From IMG/VR virus record IMGVR_UViG_2877973648_000004: a stretch of DNA of 44,570 nucleotides; one strand, written 5' to 3'. Made by a program: the position numbers and the translations under genes. Below the pieces are notes generated by a model. That model was not told the origin of the DNA, searched no databases, and worked only from the letters and a program-made list of their open reading frames with translations. Source of the DNA: a virus (Duplodnaviria > Heunggongvirae > Uroviricota > Caudoviricetes). Of this stretch, positions 23,439 through 27,272 are shown in pieces (the first letter of the stretch is position 1; each line of letters starts with the position of its first letter).

Positions 23439-23875
23439 GACAGGAACAGAGCGCGCTCCGCCTCACGCCGACGGGTCAGCCCGTTCAGGACTTTGCCACC
23501 AGCTTTATTCCAGCGCAGGAACTCATCGGCAGCGCCAGCGTAATCACCGGCGTTGAGTTTTCGCAGAAGGGTCGATGTCGACAGTGACCGGGCGCCGAGG
23601 TTGTAAGTGAACGACACCAGAGCATCGAATTGCCCCTGAGTCAGGTCAACTTTGACCAGGCGGGACACGTCGTTTTCATAGCTGACCAGCCCGGTCTTCA
23701 GCAGGCGTTCTGCAGTTTCCTGCTTAATCATCATCCCGGCTCGGATCGGTTTGCCGTCGACAGGCTTGGTCCAGCCATAGCCGATCGTCCACACTCCGAC
23801 GCTGTCCTGATACGCGGTGAGCTTGCAGCCTTCGAACTGCTTGATCAGGGCAATGCCTTTATCACTGATTTGCAT
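23435..23875 (-). CDS. Endolysin (lysozyme-like)
   Basis: 146 aa with FEGCKLTAYQD and GYGWT motifs typical of phage lysozymes; between holin and Rz. Confidence 0.75.
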   Translation of the reverse strand: MQISDKGIALIKQFEGCKLTAYQDSVGVWTIGYGWTKPVDGKPIRAGMMIKQETAERLLKTGLVSYENDVSRLVKVDLTQGQFDALVSFTYNLGARSLSTSTLLRKLNAGDYAGAADEFLRWNKAGGKVLNGLTRRREAERALFLS

Positions 23876-24179
23876 TCTTCATCCCCGTCAGTCGTTCCCA
23901 GAAGTACGTCAGTGCCACGGAGCCCATCGCCCCGCTGATACCAGACGTAACCAGAATCATGTAAAGGCTCAGCCCACTTTCAACGCTGATCAGTCCACCA
24001 ATGAGACCGGTAAAGCCGGACACTGCAATTTGTGCCAGCGCGTTGATCCAGCTCCAGGTGGCTTTGTTCTGCTTAACGTCAATAAGGTATCGGACCAAGC
24101 CGCCCCAGCATGACAGAGCAAGGACAATCAGCCATGACACTCCGGCAATGCTTTCTTTATCTTGCATACGTTTAGCCAT
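23862..24179 (-). CDS. Holin (possible dual-start MAKRM)
   Basis: About 105 aa from GGAGG-ATG; three hydrophobic helices; overlaps the endolysin start. Confidence 0.65.
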   Translation of the reverse strand: MAKRMQDKESIAGVSWLIVLALSCWGGLVRYLIDVKQNKATWSWINALAQIAVSGFTGLIGGLISVESGLSLYMILVTSGISGAMGSVALTYFWERLTGMKNANQ

Positions 24180-24400
24180 ATCACCTCCGAAAGAACGGGG
24201 TGCTGTTTGTAGTAAGGGATCAGGCCCTCGGGACGATTTAACAAGAAGGCATGTCGATGATGGTTCCCGTGAGCCTGAAATAGAAAGCCCCAGCAAATGC
24301 CTAGGCTAAATGAGGTGCCAGATCATATATCTGGCCGTATAACCTTGCGTTTGGTATTATTAAATCGCCAAAAGTAACCCTTCAAACACAAGGATTTAAA

Positions 24401-24931
24401 ATGACAAAAAGGAAGTACCGATTTTATCATGCGGACAGGGGTAACTTGCTGAACCCTGACATGACAATAATCCCTGTAAATGGCCTCTCTTCATTTGGAA
24501 AGCATTATCTCTCCCGGATAAATAGTGGAAATATGAGCGACGTGCTAGACGAAAATGTACAAAGAGAGATGCTGTATGAAAATGTGCGGATGGAAAATTT
24601 CCCATCCCGCCCAAGCCGATTCTCGTGCCTTTTTGGTGCGAACTCCATTCCTGAAGCGGAAAGCTTCGCCAGAAAGATAATCCCGCAACCGACCACCCCA
24701 ATTAATATTTATGAAGTTTTTACTGAAAATTTTGTGATTCTCGATATGAATTGGATGGATTACATAACAACAGATTTCGGTAGTAGGGTTGAATATGCCC
24801 GGCAGTACTGGTATTCATCAATTACCCAGCACGCCCCACTTACCGGCGATAGGATGATACCAACCCTGGAAGTCCTGCTGCCGCTTCCCGTGGAAGTAGG
24901 CAAGCAAGTCAGTACTGTCGCTTTTGATTAA
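24401..24931 (+). CDS. Hypothetical cargo protein (AT-rich, opposite strand to the late operon)
   Basis: 176 aa, AAGGA RBS 7 nt before ATG, lower GC; between the Q/terminator region and the lysis genes. Confidence 0.5.
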   Translation: MTKRKYRFYHADRGNLLNPDMTIIPVNGLSSFGKHYLSRINSGNMSDVLDENVQREMLYENVRMENFPSRPSRFSCLFGANSIPEAESFARKIIPQPTTPINIYEVFTENFVILDMNWMDYITTDFGSRVEYARQYWYSSITQHAPLTGDRMIPTLEVLLPLPVEVGKQVSTVAFD

Positions 24932-25100
24932 TCTGACAGTTCTGCTCAGGGAAATGGGCCAAAGGTTTATGTAAAGTCCAAAGCACTTCGGAAAGGATAG
25001 CTTTATATAGCTCACCATCATTTGCATGATAGCGAAACCTTTCAGAAGGTGAGATTTCGAAAAGTACCTTTCCCTCATCTGAAACAATTCGGACTTTCAT
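24909..25100 (-). CDS. Small hypothetical protein convergent with the cargo gene
   Basis: 63 aa with GGAGGAAAG RBS; 3' end overlaps the 176-aa gene by about 23 nt. Confidence 0.35.
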   Translation of the reverse strand: MKVRIVSDEGKVLFEISPSERFRYHANDGELYKAILSEVLWTLHKPLAHFPEQNCQINQKRQY

Positions 25101-25451
25101 CTTTCCTCCAAATTAGAAGCTACTGATTCAGTTATTACTTACTCCAGATACGACAAAGCCCCACCATTTCTGGCAGGGCTAGATTATTAAGCTGTGTGTC
25201 GAAGTGACCACTCTTAACACGTTAAACTAAAAAATGCGGACCGCACTAGCATTTTTTTAATTATTTTTGCCTACTAACGACTGCATCCATCTCAAGGCGA
25301 ACATCCAGCATTGACAGACACCCCTCAATAAACCCTTCAGCAAGCAGCATTTCTATGCGTATCTGCTTTTCGCTTTTCTTCCGGTGCTTCGCCTTCTGCC
25401 GTTTTGAATACCGTAGAATATAATGCCCAACCAACAAATGATTGTCTGCGG

Positions 25452-25485
25452 CCGAAATAAAAAAGCCCGAGACAAGCGGGCAATA
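25452..25485 (-). terminator. Rho-independent terminator (candidate tR'-like), copy 1
   Basis: Minus strand gcccg-cttgtct-cgggc followed by ttttttattt. Confidence 0.5.
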
Positions 25486-25557
25486 TGGGGGTAAGGCAAT
25501 GCCGGCTCGTTGGCCGAAGGGTCCCAGGCAGTGGGTTCTGTGTGCGGCGTACCGCAA

Positions 25558-25592
25558 ATAAAAAAGCCCCGCACGATGGCGAGGCTTGGCAT
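25558..25592 (-). terminator. Rho-independent terminator, copy 2 (near-duplicate flank)
   Basis: Minus strand GC-rich stem followed by ttttttattt; same aaataaaaaagccc flank as copy 1. Confidence 0.45.
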
Positions 25593-25666
25593 TCATTCAT
25601 GTCACACACAACAACGGCAACATATACGATTTATTCTGCTCATTTGTTCATTGAAAAGCAAGCTCG

Positions 25667-26149
25667 TTATGAGGATTTTTTTGCAATTTTCCTCACATTT
25701 TCGCGATTGTTAAACGCATTTTGCAGCGGTTGGTACAAGCAGAACAGTGAGGCATTGATGATTTGCTTCACCTCTCTACGGATTGTCGAGATGCTTGGGT
25801 GTTTATACTGATTTCCGCCACGCGTCTTCATCAGGCGAGGCTTACTTACTGTATGCTGCCATGATGCAATTCGGATCTCGCTGGAGTTACAAACGTAGTA
25901 GGCGAAGACAACCCGCCAGGCATTTTCATCCACATTCTTCAGATAGTGACGAATGACAGCATCAATGAGCATCCCGTCATCATCACTACATACCGGTCGT
26001 GATGCTTGCTGGGGCTCAACGGTAGCCATGAATCTGGCAATCATGTTGATCATCGCTTTATCAATCTTGCCGGTCTGGCACCATGCGCCCCACAACTGGA
26101 GCCACTGGTCTACCCATTGATGCTGGTCGTTGGTTAATTCCAGTTTCAT
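25667..26149 (-). CDS. Late-gene antiterminator Q-like protein
   Basis: N-terminal 95 aa show LWGAWC...CSDDDGML...YYV pattern I recall from QuuD/P22 gp23-type Q proteins; located between nin genes and lysis genes. Confidence 0.55.
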   Translation of the reverse strand: MKLELTNDQHQWVDQWLQLWGAWCQTGKIDKAMINMIARFMATVEPQQASRPVCSDDDGMLIDAVIRHYLKNVDENAWRVVFAYYVCNSSEIRIASWQHTVSKPRLMKTRGGNQYKHPSISTIRREVKQIINASLFCLYQPLQNAFNNRENVRKIAKKSS

Positions 26150-26251: not shown

Positions 26252-26452
26252 TCAGCTCTGGTCATGATTCCACCACTCCCGTGCTGACTTTCTGTATTCA
26301 GGGTTTTCTGTCTGACAGATAATTTCCGCTCGATCGCCGCTTATCAGCTCACGAGCTTTCGCATACAGCCTTTCTCTTTTAGAAAGCTGCGTCGTTTCAT
26401 ACCAGGTGCTGGCAACGAACTTTCTCGCTTCAACTGGAGTGAATGCCTTCAT
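26252..26452 (-). CDS. Hypothetical nin-region protein
   Basis: 66 aa, ATG overlapping the NinG stop. Confidence 0.4.
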   Translation of the reverse strand: MKAFTPVEARKFVASTWYETTQLSKRERLYAKARELISGDRAEIICQTENPEYRKSAREWWNHDQS

Positions 26453-27060
26453 GCTGCCTCCCGCTGTTTTAGTGCGCGAAGATCTGCCCTGGCTTTGGCG
26501 CGGATGCCATCGAGCTCTTCTCGGGTGTATCGGTGGGTTTCGTTGTTGGATTCCAGCGCCAGCACGCGCTCTTCTCCGATCAGTTCGACCAGAGCGGCAC
26601 GGTACGCCTCAATGTTCCCGGACTTGTGAACGTTGCAGGCGGAGCACTGGAGCCAGATATTGTCCGGATTAAAGCGAAGCTGTGGTGCGGCTGCCGTAGT
26701 CCGATAATGGCCAGCATGCCAGGCGAACGCCGTTTTAGTTCCGCAGGAAATACAGCCCCGCCCCTCCGCCAACTCCGTCTCGCGGCAAATGTCATTTACG
26801 GCACGCTGCGTCAGGTCAATCCAGTGCTTCAGCGGCTTAACTGCAGCTTTACGCTGGCGCCAGGCTGCACGTTCTTTCTTCTCAGTGGCGCGCTGCTTGG
26901 CAGACTCTTTGCGTTGTGCAGCCTCCCGGGCTTTTCTGGTCTGCTCTTTCCCGACGGCGCTGGCGCACTCATAACCGCAGACGGTCTGCGTGTCGCGTAC
27001 TGGATTGAACCACTGGCGGCATTCCTTGTTGGCGCACTTCCGGCGCGGTAACTTAGCCAT
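26449..27060 (-). CDS. ninG: NinG-like protein (Rap family)
   Basis: MAKLPRRKCANKECRQWF... and CISCGT...WHAGHYRTTAAAPQLRFNPDNI...HKSGN closely resemble lambda NinG. Confidence 0.8.
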   Translation of the reverse strand: MAKLPRRKCANKECRQWFNPVRDTQTVCGYECASAVGKEQTRKAREAAQRKESAKQRATEKKERAAWRQRKAAVKPLKHWIDLTQRAVNDICRETELAEGRGCISCGTKTAFAWHAGHYRTTAAAPQLRFNPDNIWLQCSACNVHKSGNIEAYRAALVELIGEERVLALESNNETHRYTREELDGIRAKARADLRALKQREAA

Positions 27061-27062
27061 AA

Positions 27063-27272
27063 TCACCCCCAGACCTTTTGTCGAAAGGTTCTTGGTGTAC
27101 GCGCCGGATGCTCGCATTCAGGCAATTTTGCGCTGATAGTCCAGGTGATGTTGTCGCGATTCAGGCTACGTTCTACCGTGGCGCCACGACGACGGTAACT
27201 GGCCACCAGCTCGTCGGCCTGATCGGTTGTGCATTCGTGATGGTGGAACCAGGAATATTTCATCGCCATCAC
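27063..27272 (-). CDS. Hypothetical nin-region protein
   Basis: 69 aa ORF abutting ninG. Confidence 0.35.
   Translation of the reverse strand: MMAMKYSWFHHHECTTDQADELVASYRRRGATVERSLNRDNITWTISAKLPECEHPARTPRTFRQKVWG

What the first reader, a model, noticed from the sequence alone, without database searches (positions are those of the whole stretch)
25261..25670. Q-gene mosaic: C-terminal remnant and duplicated terminators downstream of Q
The Q-like ORF has a recognisable N-terminal core but a divergent 60-aa tail. About 300 bp downstream, the last ~45 codons of track ORF 25261-25596 read ...IRIEMLLAEGFIEGCLSMLDVRLEMDAVV, which I recall as resembling a Q C-terminus. In between are two similar hairpin/T-run terminators. 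This suggests past recombination replacing one Q allele with another.
Basis: partly seen in the sequence, partly recalled or inferred. Interest (0 to 1): 0.4.

Follow-up and report, generated by a model that had tools for sequence, protein, structure and literature searches.

The report
Leftover Q gene fragment in prophage
Downstream of this prophage's working late-gene switch (Q) lies the dead back half of a second, different Q gene, an ordinary recombination scar that is already marked as a pseudogene in RefSeq.

Summary
The window matches a prophage of E. coli AREA_C483 at 100% identity, with late genes on the minus strand. ORF 25667-26149 is a complete phage-21-type Q antiterminator. Its "divergent tail" is the normal Q21 C-terminus, not a mosaic.

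About 230 bp downstream, 25261-25446 encodes the last ~60 residues of a different, QuuD-like Q (Pfam PF06530, E 5.5e-13). It is 88% identical in DNA to intact 138-aa Q genes elsewhere. It lacks the first ~68 codons and any start codon, and PGAP already calls it a pseudogene.

Two intrinsic terminators do lie in between, but they are not duplicates. T1 is the terminator (tR') of the resident Q module. T2 closes a conserved trailer that follows the phage tRNA slot in at least 120 phage contigs, and its stem shows compensatory changes.

The joint sits at a 7-nt microhomology (25442-25436). The same joint occurs behind three different upstream modules, so it is one old illegitimate recombination event. 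The fragment still carries its own downstream regulatory block and terminator.

Verdict: a routine lambdoid mosaic scar. The recombination interpretation is essentially right. The "mosaic Q" and "duplicated terminators" readings are not. Interest is low.

The parts
25667..26149 (-). Intact resident Q antiterminator gene, phage-21 (Q21) type, 160 aa
   Evidence: PDB 6P18/6JNX Q21, E 1.3e-46, aligned end to end. PHROG 943, E 3.5e-70. 94% nt identity to phage HK639 Q. Annotated as an intact CDS, WP_137503659.1.
25590..25715 (-). Region that must hold the late promoter pR', the Q-loading site and the start of the leader of the resident Q module; exact start site not mapped
   Evidence: Nearly invariant among HK639, GN25 and 2021CK-01361. 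By inspection: TTGCTT (25661-25656), 17-nt spacer, CAGAAT (25638-25633), with adjacent direct 8-mers AATGAACA/AATGAGCA (25652-25637) in the spacer. The consensus scan instead picks TTAACA-16-GAAAAT at 25713-25686. Inference only.
25555..25587 (-). T1: intrinsic terminator tR' of the resident Q module (9-bp stem plus U-run)
   Evidence: -16.1 kcal/mol. Annotated 'terminator' at the homologous place in HK639. Covered by a sub-threshold Rfam isrJ match at 25563-25635 (28.3 bits against a gathering score of 37).
25455..25538 (-). Conserved 'tRNA-slot trailer' ending in terminator T2 (stem 25481-25465, U-run to 25455); the tRNA slot upstream of it is empty in this window
   Evidence: The 17-mer at 25528-25512 is found in at least 120 IMG/VR contigs. 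tRNA-Thr or tRNA-Met genes abut the trailer in 36 of 131 loci. No tRNA is found in the window. The T2 stem has 4 pairs with compensatory double changes.
25436..25442 (-). Recombination joint: 7-nt microhomology ATCAYTT between the post-T2 flank (L007/L051 type) and codon ~69 of the old Q gene
   Evidence: Three-way comparison of the window with L007, L051, L063 and intact-Q L025. BLAST end points are 25436 (L004, L005, L007) and 25442 (L025).
25261..25446 (-). Q pseudogene fragment: the 3' ~60 codons of a 138-aa QuuD-like Q (parent residues ~69-127), with no N-terminal half and no start codon
   Evidence: Pfam PF06530 profile 67-118, E 5.5e-13. tblastn against the intact L025 Q covers residues 67-127 at 90% identity. 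Alignment with intact Qs. PGAP pseudogene.
25185..25260 (-). Conserved block that follows this Q type everywhere; the first part (to 25227) corresponds to the parent's last codons, and the rest is the presumed orphan late promoter/Q-loading region
   Evidence: Near-invariant across 6-8 relatives with intact or broken Q. DNA similarity of all distant Q relatives runs through the stop codon to 25187. Its function is inferred.
25150..25180 (-). Orphan terminator of the lost Q module (10-bp stem 25180-25157, weak U-tract)
   Evidence: -17.4 kcal/mol. A hairpin is kept with different sequences in all relatives, and 2 pairs show double changes. It marks the boundary between the Q-remnant block and the moron block.
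24259..25161 (.). Moron block: unannotated 63-aa ORF (24909-25100, minus) and DUF2441 gene (24401-24931, plus), ending in hairpin T4 (24307-24286, minus)
   Evidence: The same block sits directly behind the terminator of a different (269/277-aa) Q, without any Q fragment, in L034/L035 (90%) and L157 (99%). Pfam DUF2441. T4 fold.
23862..24296 (-). Start of the lysis cassette (LydA-type holin); target of the late transcript
   Evidence: Pfam PF16083. In G3/10 and CX21 the trailer/T2 is joined directly to this holin module.

Best explanation
This is a recombination scar in the Q-to-lysis region of a lambdoid (Enterobacter/E. coli type) prophage.

Working late switch:
- The resident phage-21-type Q gene lies at 25667-26149, on the minus strand.
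- It is followed by its own late promoter and leader, and by terminator T1.
- Next comes a widely conserved trailer that normally follows phage tRNA genes and ends in a second terminator, T2. The tRNA slot is empty here.

The joint:
- At 25442-25436 the sequence jumps, through a 7-nt microhomology, into codon ~69 of a different 138-aa QuuD-like Q gene.
- An ancestor therefore carried that Q. An incoming Q21-type module (Q + pR' + T1 + trailer/T2) replaced everything up to the middle of it by one illegitimate crossover.
- Later, homologous exchange within the conserved trailer placed other Q modules in front of the same scar.

What remains:
- The leftover half-gene has no start codon and no N-terminal domain, so it is a pseudogene.
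- Its downstream regulatory block and terminator survive as an orphan cassette.
- During induction, RNA polymerase modified by the resident Q must read through T1, T2, the orphan terminator and T4 to reach the holin.

Shown: the homologies, the joint, its recurrence, and the terminator hairpins with their covariation.
Inferred: the direction and order of events, the promoter positions, and the read-through.
For: - Resident Q: full-length Q21 homology and contiguous 94% identity to HK639 Q plus terminator.
- Fragment as Q C-terminus: Pfam and PHROG matches. Intact 138-aa parents L024/L025 match at 88% nt from 25442/25436 to 25155/25173.
- Recency: divergence from L025 is mostly at third codon positions (12 of 18 differences). 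Little decay has therefore occurred since truncation.
- Single event: the identical joint ('...FFISAADNHLLVGHY...') lies behind three upstream contexts. These are Q21-type plus T1 (window, L020/L031, L030/L032, L155), a 229-aa Q plus tRNA-Asn/Thr (MLI104K1), and a third context (L017/L033/L156).
- Trailer/T2 as an independent conserved unit.
- Usual arrangement: other prophages join T2 directly to the same holin (G3/10, CX21).
- Annotation: PGAP pseudogene.
- General Q cassette architecture (Q gene, PR', sigma-dependent pause element, terminator, late genes): bioRxiv 10.1101/651190.
Against: - No genome was found that carries the postulated parent arrangement (intact QuuD-like Q plus the same moron plus this holin). 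Genome-contig scans found nothing, and IMG/VR and metagenome scans gave none.
- The moron block occurs at 99% identity behind another Q without the fragment (L157). The order of events (Q replacement first, or moron acquisition first) is therefore unresolved.
- Neither promoter has been mapped. The consensus scan does not pick the promoter I favour for the resident module.
- Read-through of four terminators is assumed from what is known about Q. It is not shown here.
Confidence: 0.85

Rival explanations
1. The Q fragment was not left behind in place. It came in as the leading edge of an imported cassette (Q 3' end + orphan regulatory block + moron) that was inserted between T2 and the holin of a G3/10-like prophage.
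For: G3/10 and CX21 have T2 joined directly to the same holin. The fragment and the moron are always linked wherever the fragment occurs. A terminator-like sequence with a similar tail flanks both ends (T2 and T4).
Against: This needs two non-homologous joints instead of one. The T4-to-holin joint is a common conserved linker also seen in L035 with another lysis module. The post-T2 flank in the window (GGCCGCAGACAATCATTT) is of the L007 type, not the G3/10 type, so the recipient was not G3/10-like.
Confidence: 0.2
2. The two terminators arose by tandem duplication of one terminator.
For: An exact 14-nt repeat, AAATAAAAAAGCCC, spaced 101 nt apart.
Against: The identity is limited to part of the 3' stem arm plus the T-run. 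The rest of the stems, the loops and the flanks differ. In relatives the T2 stem is CCTGGC/GCCAGG, CCCGGC/GCCGGG or GCCAGC/GCTGGC, with tails that no longer match T1. T2 occurs behind tRNA genes and other Q types without T1.
Confidence: 0.04
3. The 111-aa ORF (or a shorter product of the fragment) is a real gene, encoding a stand-alone Q C-terminal domain that modulates antitermination.
For: The frame is open for 111 codons from an ATG at 25596. The fragment has diverged from intact alleles mostly at third codon positions.
Against: The first 50 codons run through two terminators and a non-coding trailer. In MLI104K1 the frame is closed by TGA at the start of the trailer, and in L017/L033 there is no upstream ATG. 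There is no ribosome-binding site before 25596. The third-position bias is explained by divergence between alleles before truncation. Other independent truncations and frameshifts of this Q type exist (L010, L014, L018, L019), as expected for decay.
Confidence: 0.03
4. The orphan block (25260-25150) is still an active transcription unit. It would make a short, terminated RNA, like lambda 6S, StxS or Gifsy-1 IsrK. It could also be switched to read-through by a cognate QuuD-like Q supplied by another phage. This reading is not exclusive of the best explanation.
For: The block is near-invariant across relatives while the coding part varies. 25220-25150 folds into two hairpins with z = -3.7, and 0 of 200 shuffles fold as well. 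The terminator hairpin is maintained by different sequences. Short pR'-type RNAs with regulatory roles are documented (IsrK: PMC4825925).
Against: No convincing -35/-10 pair is conserved. The only consensus hit (TGGTCA-16-AATAAT, 25210-25183) is absent from more distant relatives and would start inside the hairpin. The U-tract is poor (UUUGUCG). The source genome holds no second QuuD-like Q detectable at the DNA level. There are no expression data.
Confidence: 0.2

Closest known systems
Phage 21 Q and its PR'21 cassette (PDB 6P18, 6JNX; bioRxiv 10.1101/651190)
   Same: The resident Q aligns with Q21 over its whole length, including the C-terminal 60 residues. It belongs to the same Pfam family, PF06530. 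It is followed by a short leader and a strong intrinsic terminator.
   Different: The sequence has clearly diverged from Q21 (E 1.3e-46, aligned end to end; no percent identity computed). The promoter and Q-binding element were not compared, because the PR'21 sequence is only in that paper's figures. Activity has not been tested.
Phage HK639 Q region (HM208537, Q gene plus annotated terminators)
   Same: 94% nt identity from the Q gene through T1, which is annotated there as a terminator. HK639 also has several terminators between Q and the lysis genes.
   Different: HK639 diverges immediately after T1. It has no trailer/T2 of this type and no Q fragment.
Mosaic joints of lambdoid phages (pervasive mosaicism of HK97/HK022/lambda-type genomes; my own knowledge of Juhala et al. 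2000 and Hendrix et al. 1999) and heterogeneity of the Q-stx 'pR' region' (PMC6266700)
   Same: Modules are exchanged at conserved linkers. An occasional illegitimate joint inside a gene leaves a gene fragment. The Q-to-lysis interval is a known hot spot for tRNAs and morons.
   Different: Nothing is different in kind. This is one more instance, here with a joint mapped to a 7-nt interval and three upstream partners.
E. coli K-12 DLP12 QuuD, Stx-phage 1720a-02 and SfIV type Q (about 120-138 aa, PF06530)
   Same: The fragment is 67-73% identical to the C-termini of the 1720a-02 and SfIV Qs and 73% to Stx-phage Qs. DNA similarity continues about 75 nt past the stop codon. The resemblance to DLP12 QuuD rests on my memory of its sequence only and was not tested.
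   Different: Only the last ~60 codons are present. The closest intact alleles are in IMG/VR contigs (L024/L025, 88% nt).
Gifsy-1 antQ-isrK-orf45-anrP-isrJ locus (PMC4825925) and lambda 6S RNA
   Same: A Q gene is followed by a short terminated leader RNA, then a moron, then another short-RNA unit before the lysis genes. The T1 leader gives a weak isrJ-like Rfam match. A 13-mer of the orphan block is also present in the lambda pR' leader.
   Different: The isrJ match is below the gathering score. No expression data exist for this prophage. Gifsy-1 AntQ was not compared here.

Membership tests
Q21/Q933W-family antiterminator (Pfam PF06530): resident Q, 25667-26149 | Sequence homology over the full length to a characterised member (Q21), including the C-terminal region | tested here: met
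   phmmer against PDB: 6P18/6JNX, E 1.3e-46, residues 2-156 vs 5-159 of 162. PHROG 943 positions 5-161/165. Pfam PF06530, E 1.4e-21.
Q21/Q933W-family antiterminator (Pfam PF06530): resident Q, 25667-26149 | Gene position between the nin region and the lysis cassette | tested here: met
   NinG and DUF1367 lie upstream; holin, lysozyme and Rz lie downstream.
Q21/Q933W-family antiterminator (Pfam PF06530): resident Q, 25667-26149 | Followed by a promoter with a Q-binding element and sigma-dependent pause element, then an intrinsic terminator | tested here: inconclusive
   The terminator T1 is clear. The promoter, the direct 8-mers and a -10-like TATATG are seen only by inspection of a conserved region. 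The consensus scan prefers another site.
Q21/Q933W-family antiterminator (Pfam PF06530): resident Q, 25667-26149 | Terminator read-through activity dependent on its own loading site | not testable with these tools
   Needs in vitro transcription or reporter assays.
Pseudogene fragment of a QuuD-like Q (PF06530): 25261-25446 | Significant homology to the C-terminal part of the family | tested here: met
   Pfam profile 67-118/118, E 5.5e-13. PHROG 79 positions 97-154/156. 16 invariant columns shared with intact Qs.
Pseudogene fragment of a QuuD-like Q (PF06530): 25261-25446 | N-terminal half and start codon missing | tested here: met
   tblastn with the intact 138-aa Q finds only residues 67-127. 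Upstream lie the trailer and T2. The frame is closed or lacks an ATG in relatives.
Pseudogene fragment of a QuuD-like Q (PF06530): 25261-25446 | Intact full-length copies of the same allele type exist elsewhere | tested here: met
   L024 and L025 carry 138-aa ORFs, 88% nt identical over 265-288 nt.
Intrinsic (Rho-independent) terminators: T1, T2, orphan hairpin | G+C-rich hairpin followed by a U-run on the transcribed strand | tested here: met
   T1 has 9 bp and UUUUUUAUUU. T2 has 5 bp (6 bp in relatives) and UUUUUUAUUU. The orphan hairpin has 10 bp but a weak UUUGU tract.
Intrinsic (Rho-independent) terminators: T1, T2, orphan hairpin | Hairpin maintained by compensatory changes in relatives | tested here: met
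   T2: 4 of 5 pairs have double changes across 38 sequences. Orphan hairpin: 2 pairs with double changes, and a hairpin is present in all 8 sequences. T1 never varies, so it is uninformative.
Intrinsic (Rho-independent) terminators: T1, T2, orphan hairpin | Termination in the absence of Q and read-through in its presence | not testable with these tools
   Needs Term-seq or reporter assays.
Tandem duplication (the 'duplicated terminators' reading) | Similarity extends over the whole unit (stem, loop, flanks), and single-copy relatives exist | tested here: not met
   Only a 14-nt identity. The T2 alleles in relatives do not resemble T1. T2 occurs independently of T1.
Rfam isrJ (RF01393) | Score at or above the family gathering threshold | tested here: not met
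   28.3 bits against a gathering score of 37, E 0.021, at 25563-25635(-). Nothing in the whole window reaches any gathering score.

The most novel reading that the evidence does not exclude
The stretch between Q and the holin may not be mere spacer plus scar. It may hold up to three small terminated RNA units.

1. The Q21-type pR' leader ending at T1. It gives a weak isrJ-like match and has a GU-rich single-stranded run.
2. The ~85-nt trailer ending at T2. Its body is almost invariant in at least 120 phage contigs while its terminator stem covaries, and it directly follows phage tRNA genes. It could be a processed, 3'-trailer-derived sRNA.
3. The orphan leader of the lost Q. It could additionally act as an entry port through which a QuuD-like Q from another phage switches on this prophage's moron and lysis genes.
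Probability: 0.12. Interest if true: 0.45.

Novelty: already known. Interest (0 to 1): 0.15.

Why it matters
It matters little on its own. It is a clean, precisely mapped example of how lambdoid prophages swap their late-gene switch:
- one illegitimate crossover at a 7-nt microhomology,
- followed by repeated homologous exchange in a conserved linker.

It also shows that a gene caller's 111-aa ORF here is an artefact.

It has some practical value for annotation. The resident Q is a normal Q21-type protein, the second 'Q' is dead, and the terminators belong to separate modules.

The side observations could be worth a transcriptomic look. These are the conserved tRNA-slot trailer, the orphan leader cassette and the unannotated 63-aa gene. 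Short RNAs from exactly this position in other prophages (StxS, from my own knowledge; IsrK, PMC4825925) have turned out to be regulators.

Tried and rejected
Searches for the parental arrangement:
- Two scans of GTDB species genomes, one with the DUF2441 protein and one with a degenerate pattern for the fragment, found nothing.
- The word-indexed protein search with the 61-aa fragment returned only five short proteins (50-87 aa). The two whose context was examined (P0004/L010, P0005/L014) are other broken copies; the other three sit on contigs too short to tell.
- The metagenome scan found only copies of arrangements already seen, plus L157.
- The parent (intact QuuD-like Q + this moron + this holin) was therefore not found.

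Literature:
- A search for quuD gave nothing.
- A search for truncated or mosaic Q gave nothing specific.
- The Q21 structure paper does not give the PR'21 or Q-binding-element sequence in its text. I could not test my guess that AATGAACA/AATGAGCA is the Q-binding direct repeat.

Sequence and family searches:
- Phage 21 itself is not close enough in DNA to be found in the phage collection.
- Rfam gave no family at gathering score anywhere in the window.
- PADLOC gave nothing for the moron proteins.

Structure and promoters:
- Folding the trailer alone gave no significant structure beyond T2 (z = -1.2).
- I could not fix a promoter for either leader from sequence.
- The hairpin at 25247-25233 is weak (6 pairs, 3 of them G-C). 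It lies inside what is coding sequence in the intact parent, so I do not count it as a terminator.
Full report
**Source and orientation**

The 1.1 kb around the finding is 100% identical to a prophage in the chromosome of E. coli AREA_C483 (NZ_CP123310). The same sequence occurs in IMG/VR and gut-metagenome contigs, so it is not an assembly artefact. Late genes run on the minus strand in this order:
- NinG (26449-27117)
- two small ORFs
- Q (25667-26149)
- the region in question
- a DUF2441 gene on the opposite strand (24401-24931)
- LydA-type holin, lysozyme and Rz/Rz1 (from 24296 downward)

**The resident Q**

Pfam's Phage_antitermQ profile matches only residues 11-100 of the 160-aa ORF (profile 2-90 of 118).
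- The whole protein aligns with the crystallised Q of phage 21 (6P18/6JNX), residues 2-156 against 5-159, E 1.3e-46. The tail is well conserved: PSISTIRREVKQIINASLFCLYQPLQNAFNNRENVRKIA against PSLATCRREVDEILNASLFMIYPVLDSAFKNRKRVEKIK.
- PHROG 943 covers it end to end.
- At the DNA level, the gene plus the next ~110 nt is one contiguous 94% match to phage HK639.

So the resident Q is a normal, complete Q21-type protein, not a mosaic. It stops six codons earlier than its closest relatives (160 vs 166 aa). The cause is a run of seven A instead of six at 25676-25682. This lies beyond the part ordered in the Q21 structures.

**The fragment**

Residues 51-102 of ORF 25261-25596 match the end of the same Pfam profile (67-118, E 5.5e-13) and PHROG 79 (97-154 of 156).
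- A degenerate DNA pattern for EGFIEGCLSML pulled 16 IMG/VR contigs. Two of them (L024, L025) carry intact 138-aa Q genes of this allele type.
- Those genes are 88% identical in DNA to the window from 25442/25436 down to 25155/25173.
- tblastn with the intact protein finds only residues 67-127 in the window.
- Of 18 nucleotide differences from L025 in 150 nt, 12 are at third codon positions. Most of the divergence therefore predates inactivation.
- RefSeq already annotates 25261-25446 as an incomplete Q-family pseudogene lacking its N-terminus.
- The long 111-aa ORF is an artefact. Its first 50 codons cross two terminators. In MLI104K1 the frame is closed by TGA, and in L017/L033 there is no upstream ATG.
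- Both Qs belong to Pfam PF06530, the Q21/Q933W family (bioRxiv 10.1101/651190). They represent different branches with different C-terminal regions (PHROG 943 versus 79).

**The two terminators**

T1 (stem 25587-25564, -16 kcal/mol, UUUUUUAUUU) directly follows the conserved leader of the Q21-type module. It is annotated as a terminator in HK639.

T2 (stem 25481-25465) belongs to something else. A 17-mer from the sequence between T1 and T2 occurs in at least 120 IMG/VR contigs.
- In these contigs an ~85-nt unit is conserved. Its body, (G/A)AACCCACTnCCTGGGACCCTTCGGCCAnnGAGCCGnCATTGCCTTACCC, is almost invariant.
- It is followed by a hairpin whose stem exists in at least six allelic forms, including GCCCGC/GCGGGC, CCTGGC/GCCAGG, CCCGGC/GCCGGG, GCCAGC/GCTGGC and GCTCGC/GCGAGC.
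- Four of its five predicted pairs show double compensatory changes.
- In 36 of 131 loci a tRNA gene (Thr or Met, often preceded by Asn, Gly, Phe or Arg) ends right at the start of this unit. In others a different Q's terminator does.

The unit is therefore the trailer of the phage tRNA slot, and the slot is empty in this window (no tRNA). T1 and T2 share only an exact 14-mer, which is part of the 3' stem arm plus the T-run. The duplication idea is rejected.

**The joint**

After T2 the window continues with CGGCCGCAGACAATCATTT. This is the flank found in the L007/L051/L063 type of prophage, where it runs on into a different lysis cassette. The window then switches to GTTGGTTGGGCATTATATTCT, which is codons 70 onward of the L025-type Q.
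- The two parents share ATCAYTT at the switch point, so the crossover lies within 25442-25436.
- The same joint is present behind three different upstream arrangements. These are the Q21-type module, a 229-aa Q with tRNA-Asn and tRNA-Thr (E. coli MLI104K1), and a third context (L017/L033/L156).
- That pattern fits one old illegitimate event followed by homologous exchange within the conserved trailer.
- Only 2 of 5,426 complete E. coli genomes carry the fragment. About 100 carry the trailer. The nearest named phages with the trailer infect Enterobacter.

**What came with the fragment**

DNA similarity to every QuuD-like relative, including Stx-phage Qs at 74%, runs through the stop codon for another ~75 nt and ends at 25187.
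- Among close relatives, GCTAGTGCGGTCCGCATTTTTTAGTTTAACGTGTTAAGAGTGGTCACTTCGACACA is essentially invariant.
- It is followed by a hairpin that is kept with different sequences (window AGCCCTGCCA...TGGTGGGGCT at 25180-25157).
- I take this to be the late promoter, Q-loading region and terminator of the lost Q, now orphaned.
- I could not identify its promoter with confidence. The only consensus hit (25210-25183) is not conserved.
- In L025 the Q ORF runs on to 25227, so the weak hairpin at 25247-25233 is inside former coding sequence.
- The segment 25220-25150 folds unusually well (z = -3.7).
- A 13-mer, TGGTCACTTCGAC, is shared with the lambda pR' leader.

**Beyond the orphan terminator**

From 25161 to 24259 lies a separate block: a 63-aa ORF, the DUF2441 gene and hairpin T4.
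- This block occurs at 90-99% identity directly behind the terminator of a 269/277-aa Q, without any Q fragment, in L034, L035 and L157.
- The block boundaries coincide with terminator T-runs and short conserved linkers.
- The whole Q-to-holin interval is thus a chain of five modules. The Q fragment marks the only joint that falls inside a gene.

**Mechanism**

From what is established for Q proteins (bioRxiv 10.1101/651190), the resident Q should load at its own promoter-proximal site and carry RNA polymerase through T1, T2, the orphan hairpin and T4 to the holin. Without Q, transcription should stop at T1. This is inference. Nothing here measures transcription. The fragment itself should be inert.

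**Which history?**

In-place replacement needs one illegitimate joint. The rival, import of fragment plus moron into a G3/10-like T2-holin junction, needs two. The rival also conflicts with the L007-type flank that precedes the joint. I could not find the postulated parent, so the rival keeps about 0.2.

**Verdict**

- The recombination interpretation is essentially right.
- The 'mosaic Q' and 'duplicated terminators' parts are wrong.
- The feature is an ordinary, already annotated scar of lambdoid mosaicism. Interest is low.

The only leads with some novelty are the conserved tRNA-slot trailer, the orphan leader cassette and the small unannotated gene. All of them need transcript data.

Noticed in passing
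window 24909-25100 (-): Unannotated 63-aa ORF with a strong ribosome-binding site (GGAGGAAAG-ATG). It is convergent with the DUF2441 gene and overlaps its 3' end. Against the L035 copy it has 9 nt differences, 7 of them at third codon positions, and only 2 aa changes, so it is probably a real gene. It has no Pfam, PHROG or PADLOC hit.
   Followed up: partly
window 25455-25538 (-): An ~85-nt 'tRNA-slot trailer'. Its body is almost invariant and its terminator stem covaries. It is present in at least 120 IMG/VR contigs and about 100 E. coli genomes. It starts exactly at the 3' end of phage tRNA-Thr or tRNA-Met genes in 36 of 131 loci. No Rfam family matches it. It could be a module-boundary linker or a trailer-derived small RNA.
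   Followed up: partly
window 25563-25635 (-): The leader plus T1 of the Q21-type module gives a sub-threshold match to the Salmonella sRNA family isrJ (28.3 bits against a gathering score of 37). In Gifsy-1, isrJ lies downstream of antQ-isrK-orf45-anrP (PMC4825925), so isrJ may itself be a Q21-type late-leader cassette. The leader contains a GU-rich run, GUUGCCGUUGUUGUGUGUG.
   Followed up: partly
window 25198-25210 (-); L154 (lambda) 44659-44671: The 13-mer TGGTCACTTCGAC of the orphan block is also present in the lambda pR' (6S) leader. The sequence after the orphan hairpin (CGTATCTGGAG) resembles what follows the 13-mer in lambda (GTATCGTCTGGAA).
   Followed up: no
window 25676-25682: A run of seven A, against six in close relatives, shifts the last codons of the resident Q. 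It ends ...KIAKKSS (160 aa) instead of ...KIAKNPHNALAFQ (166 aa). This could be a real variant or a homopolymer sequencing error.
   Followed up: no
window 24167-24180 (-): The holin has two in-frame starts, MAKRMQDK..., a holin/antiholin dual-start motif as in lambda S. PGAP uses the second ATG.
   Followed up: no
L010 2785-3129; L014 218-343; L018; L019: Other independent truncated or frameshifted copies of the same QuuD-like Q type occur in unrelated contexts. One example sits next to int/xis in a decayed prophage (L010). Decay of this Q is therefore recurrent.
   Followed up: partly
window 24286-24307, 25157-25180, 25564-25587 (-); L001 2318-2352: T1, the orphan hairpin, T4 and the terminator of the 229-aa Q in MLI104K1 all have the form AGCC(T/C)..G.CA....G..GGGGCTTT. 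T4 and T1 are 71% identical over 24 nt. They may be one family of tR' terminators left by successive Q modules.
   Followed up: no
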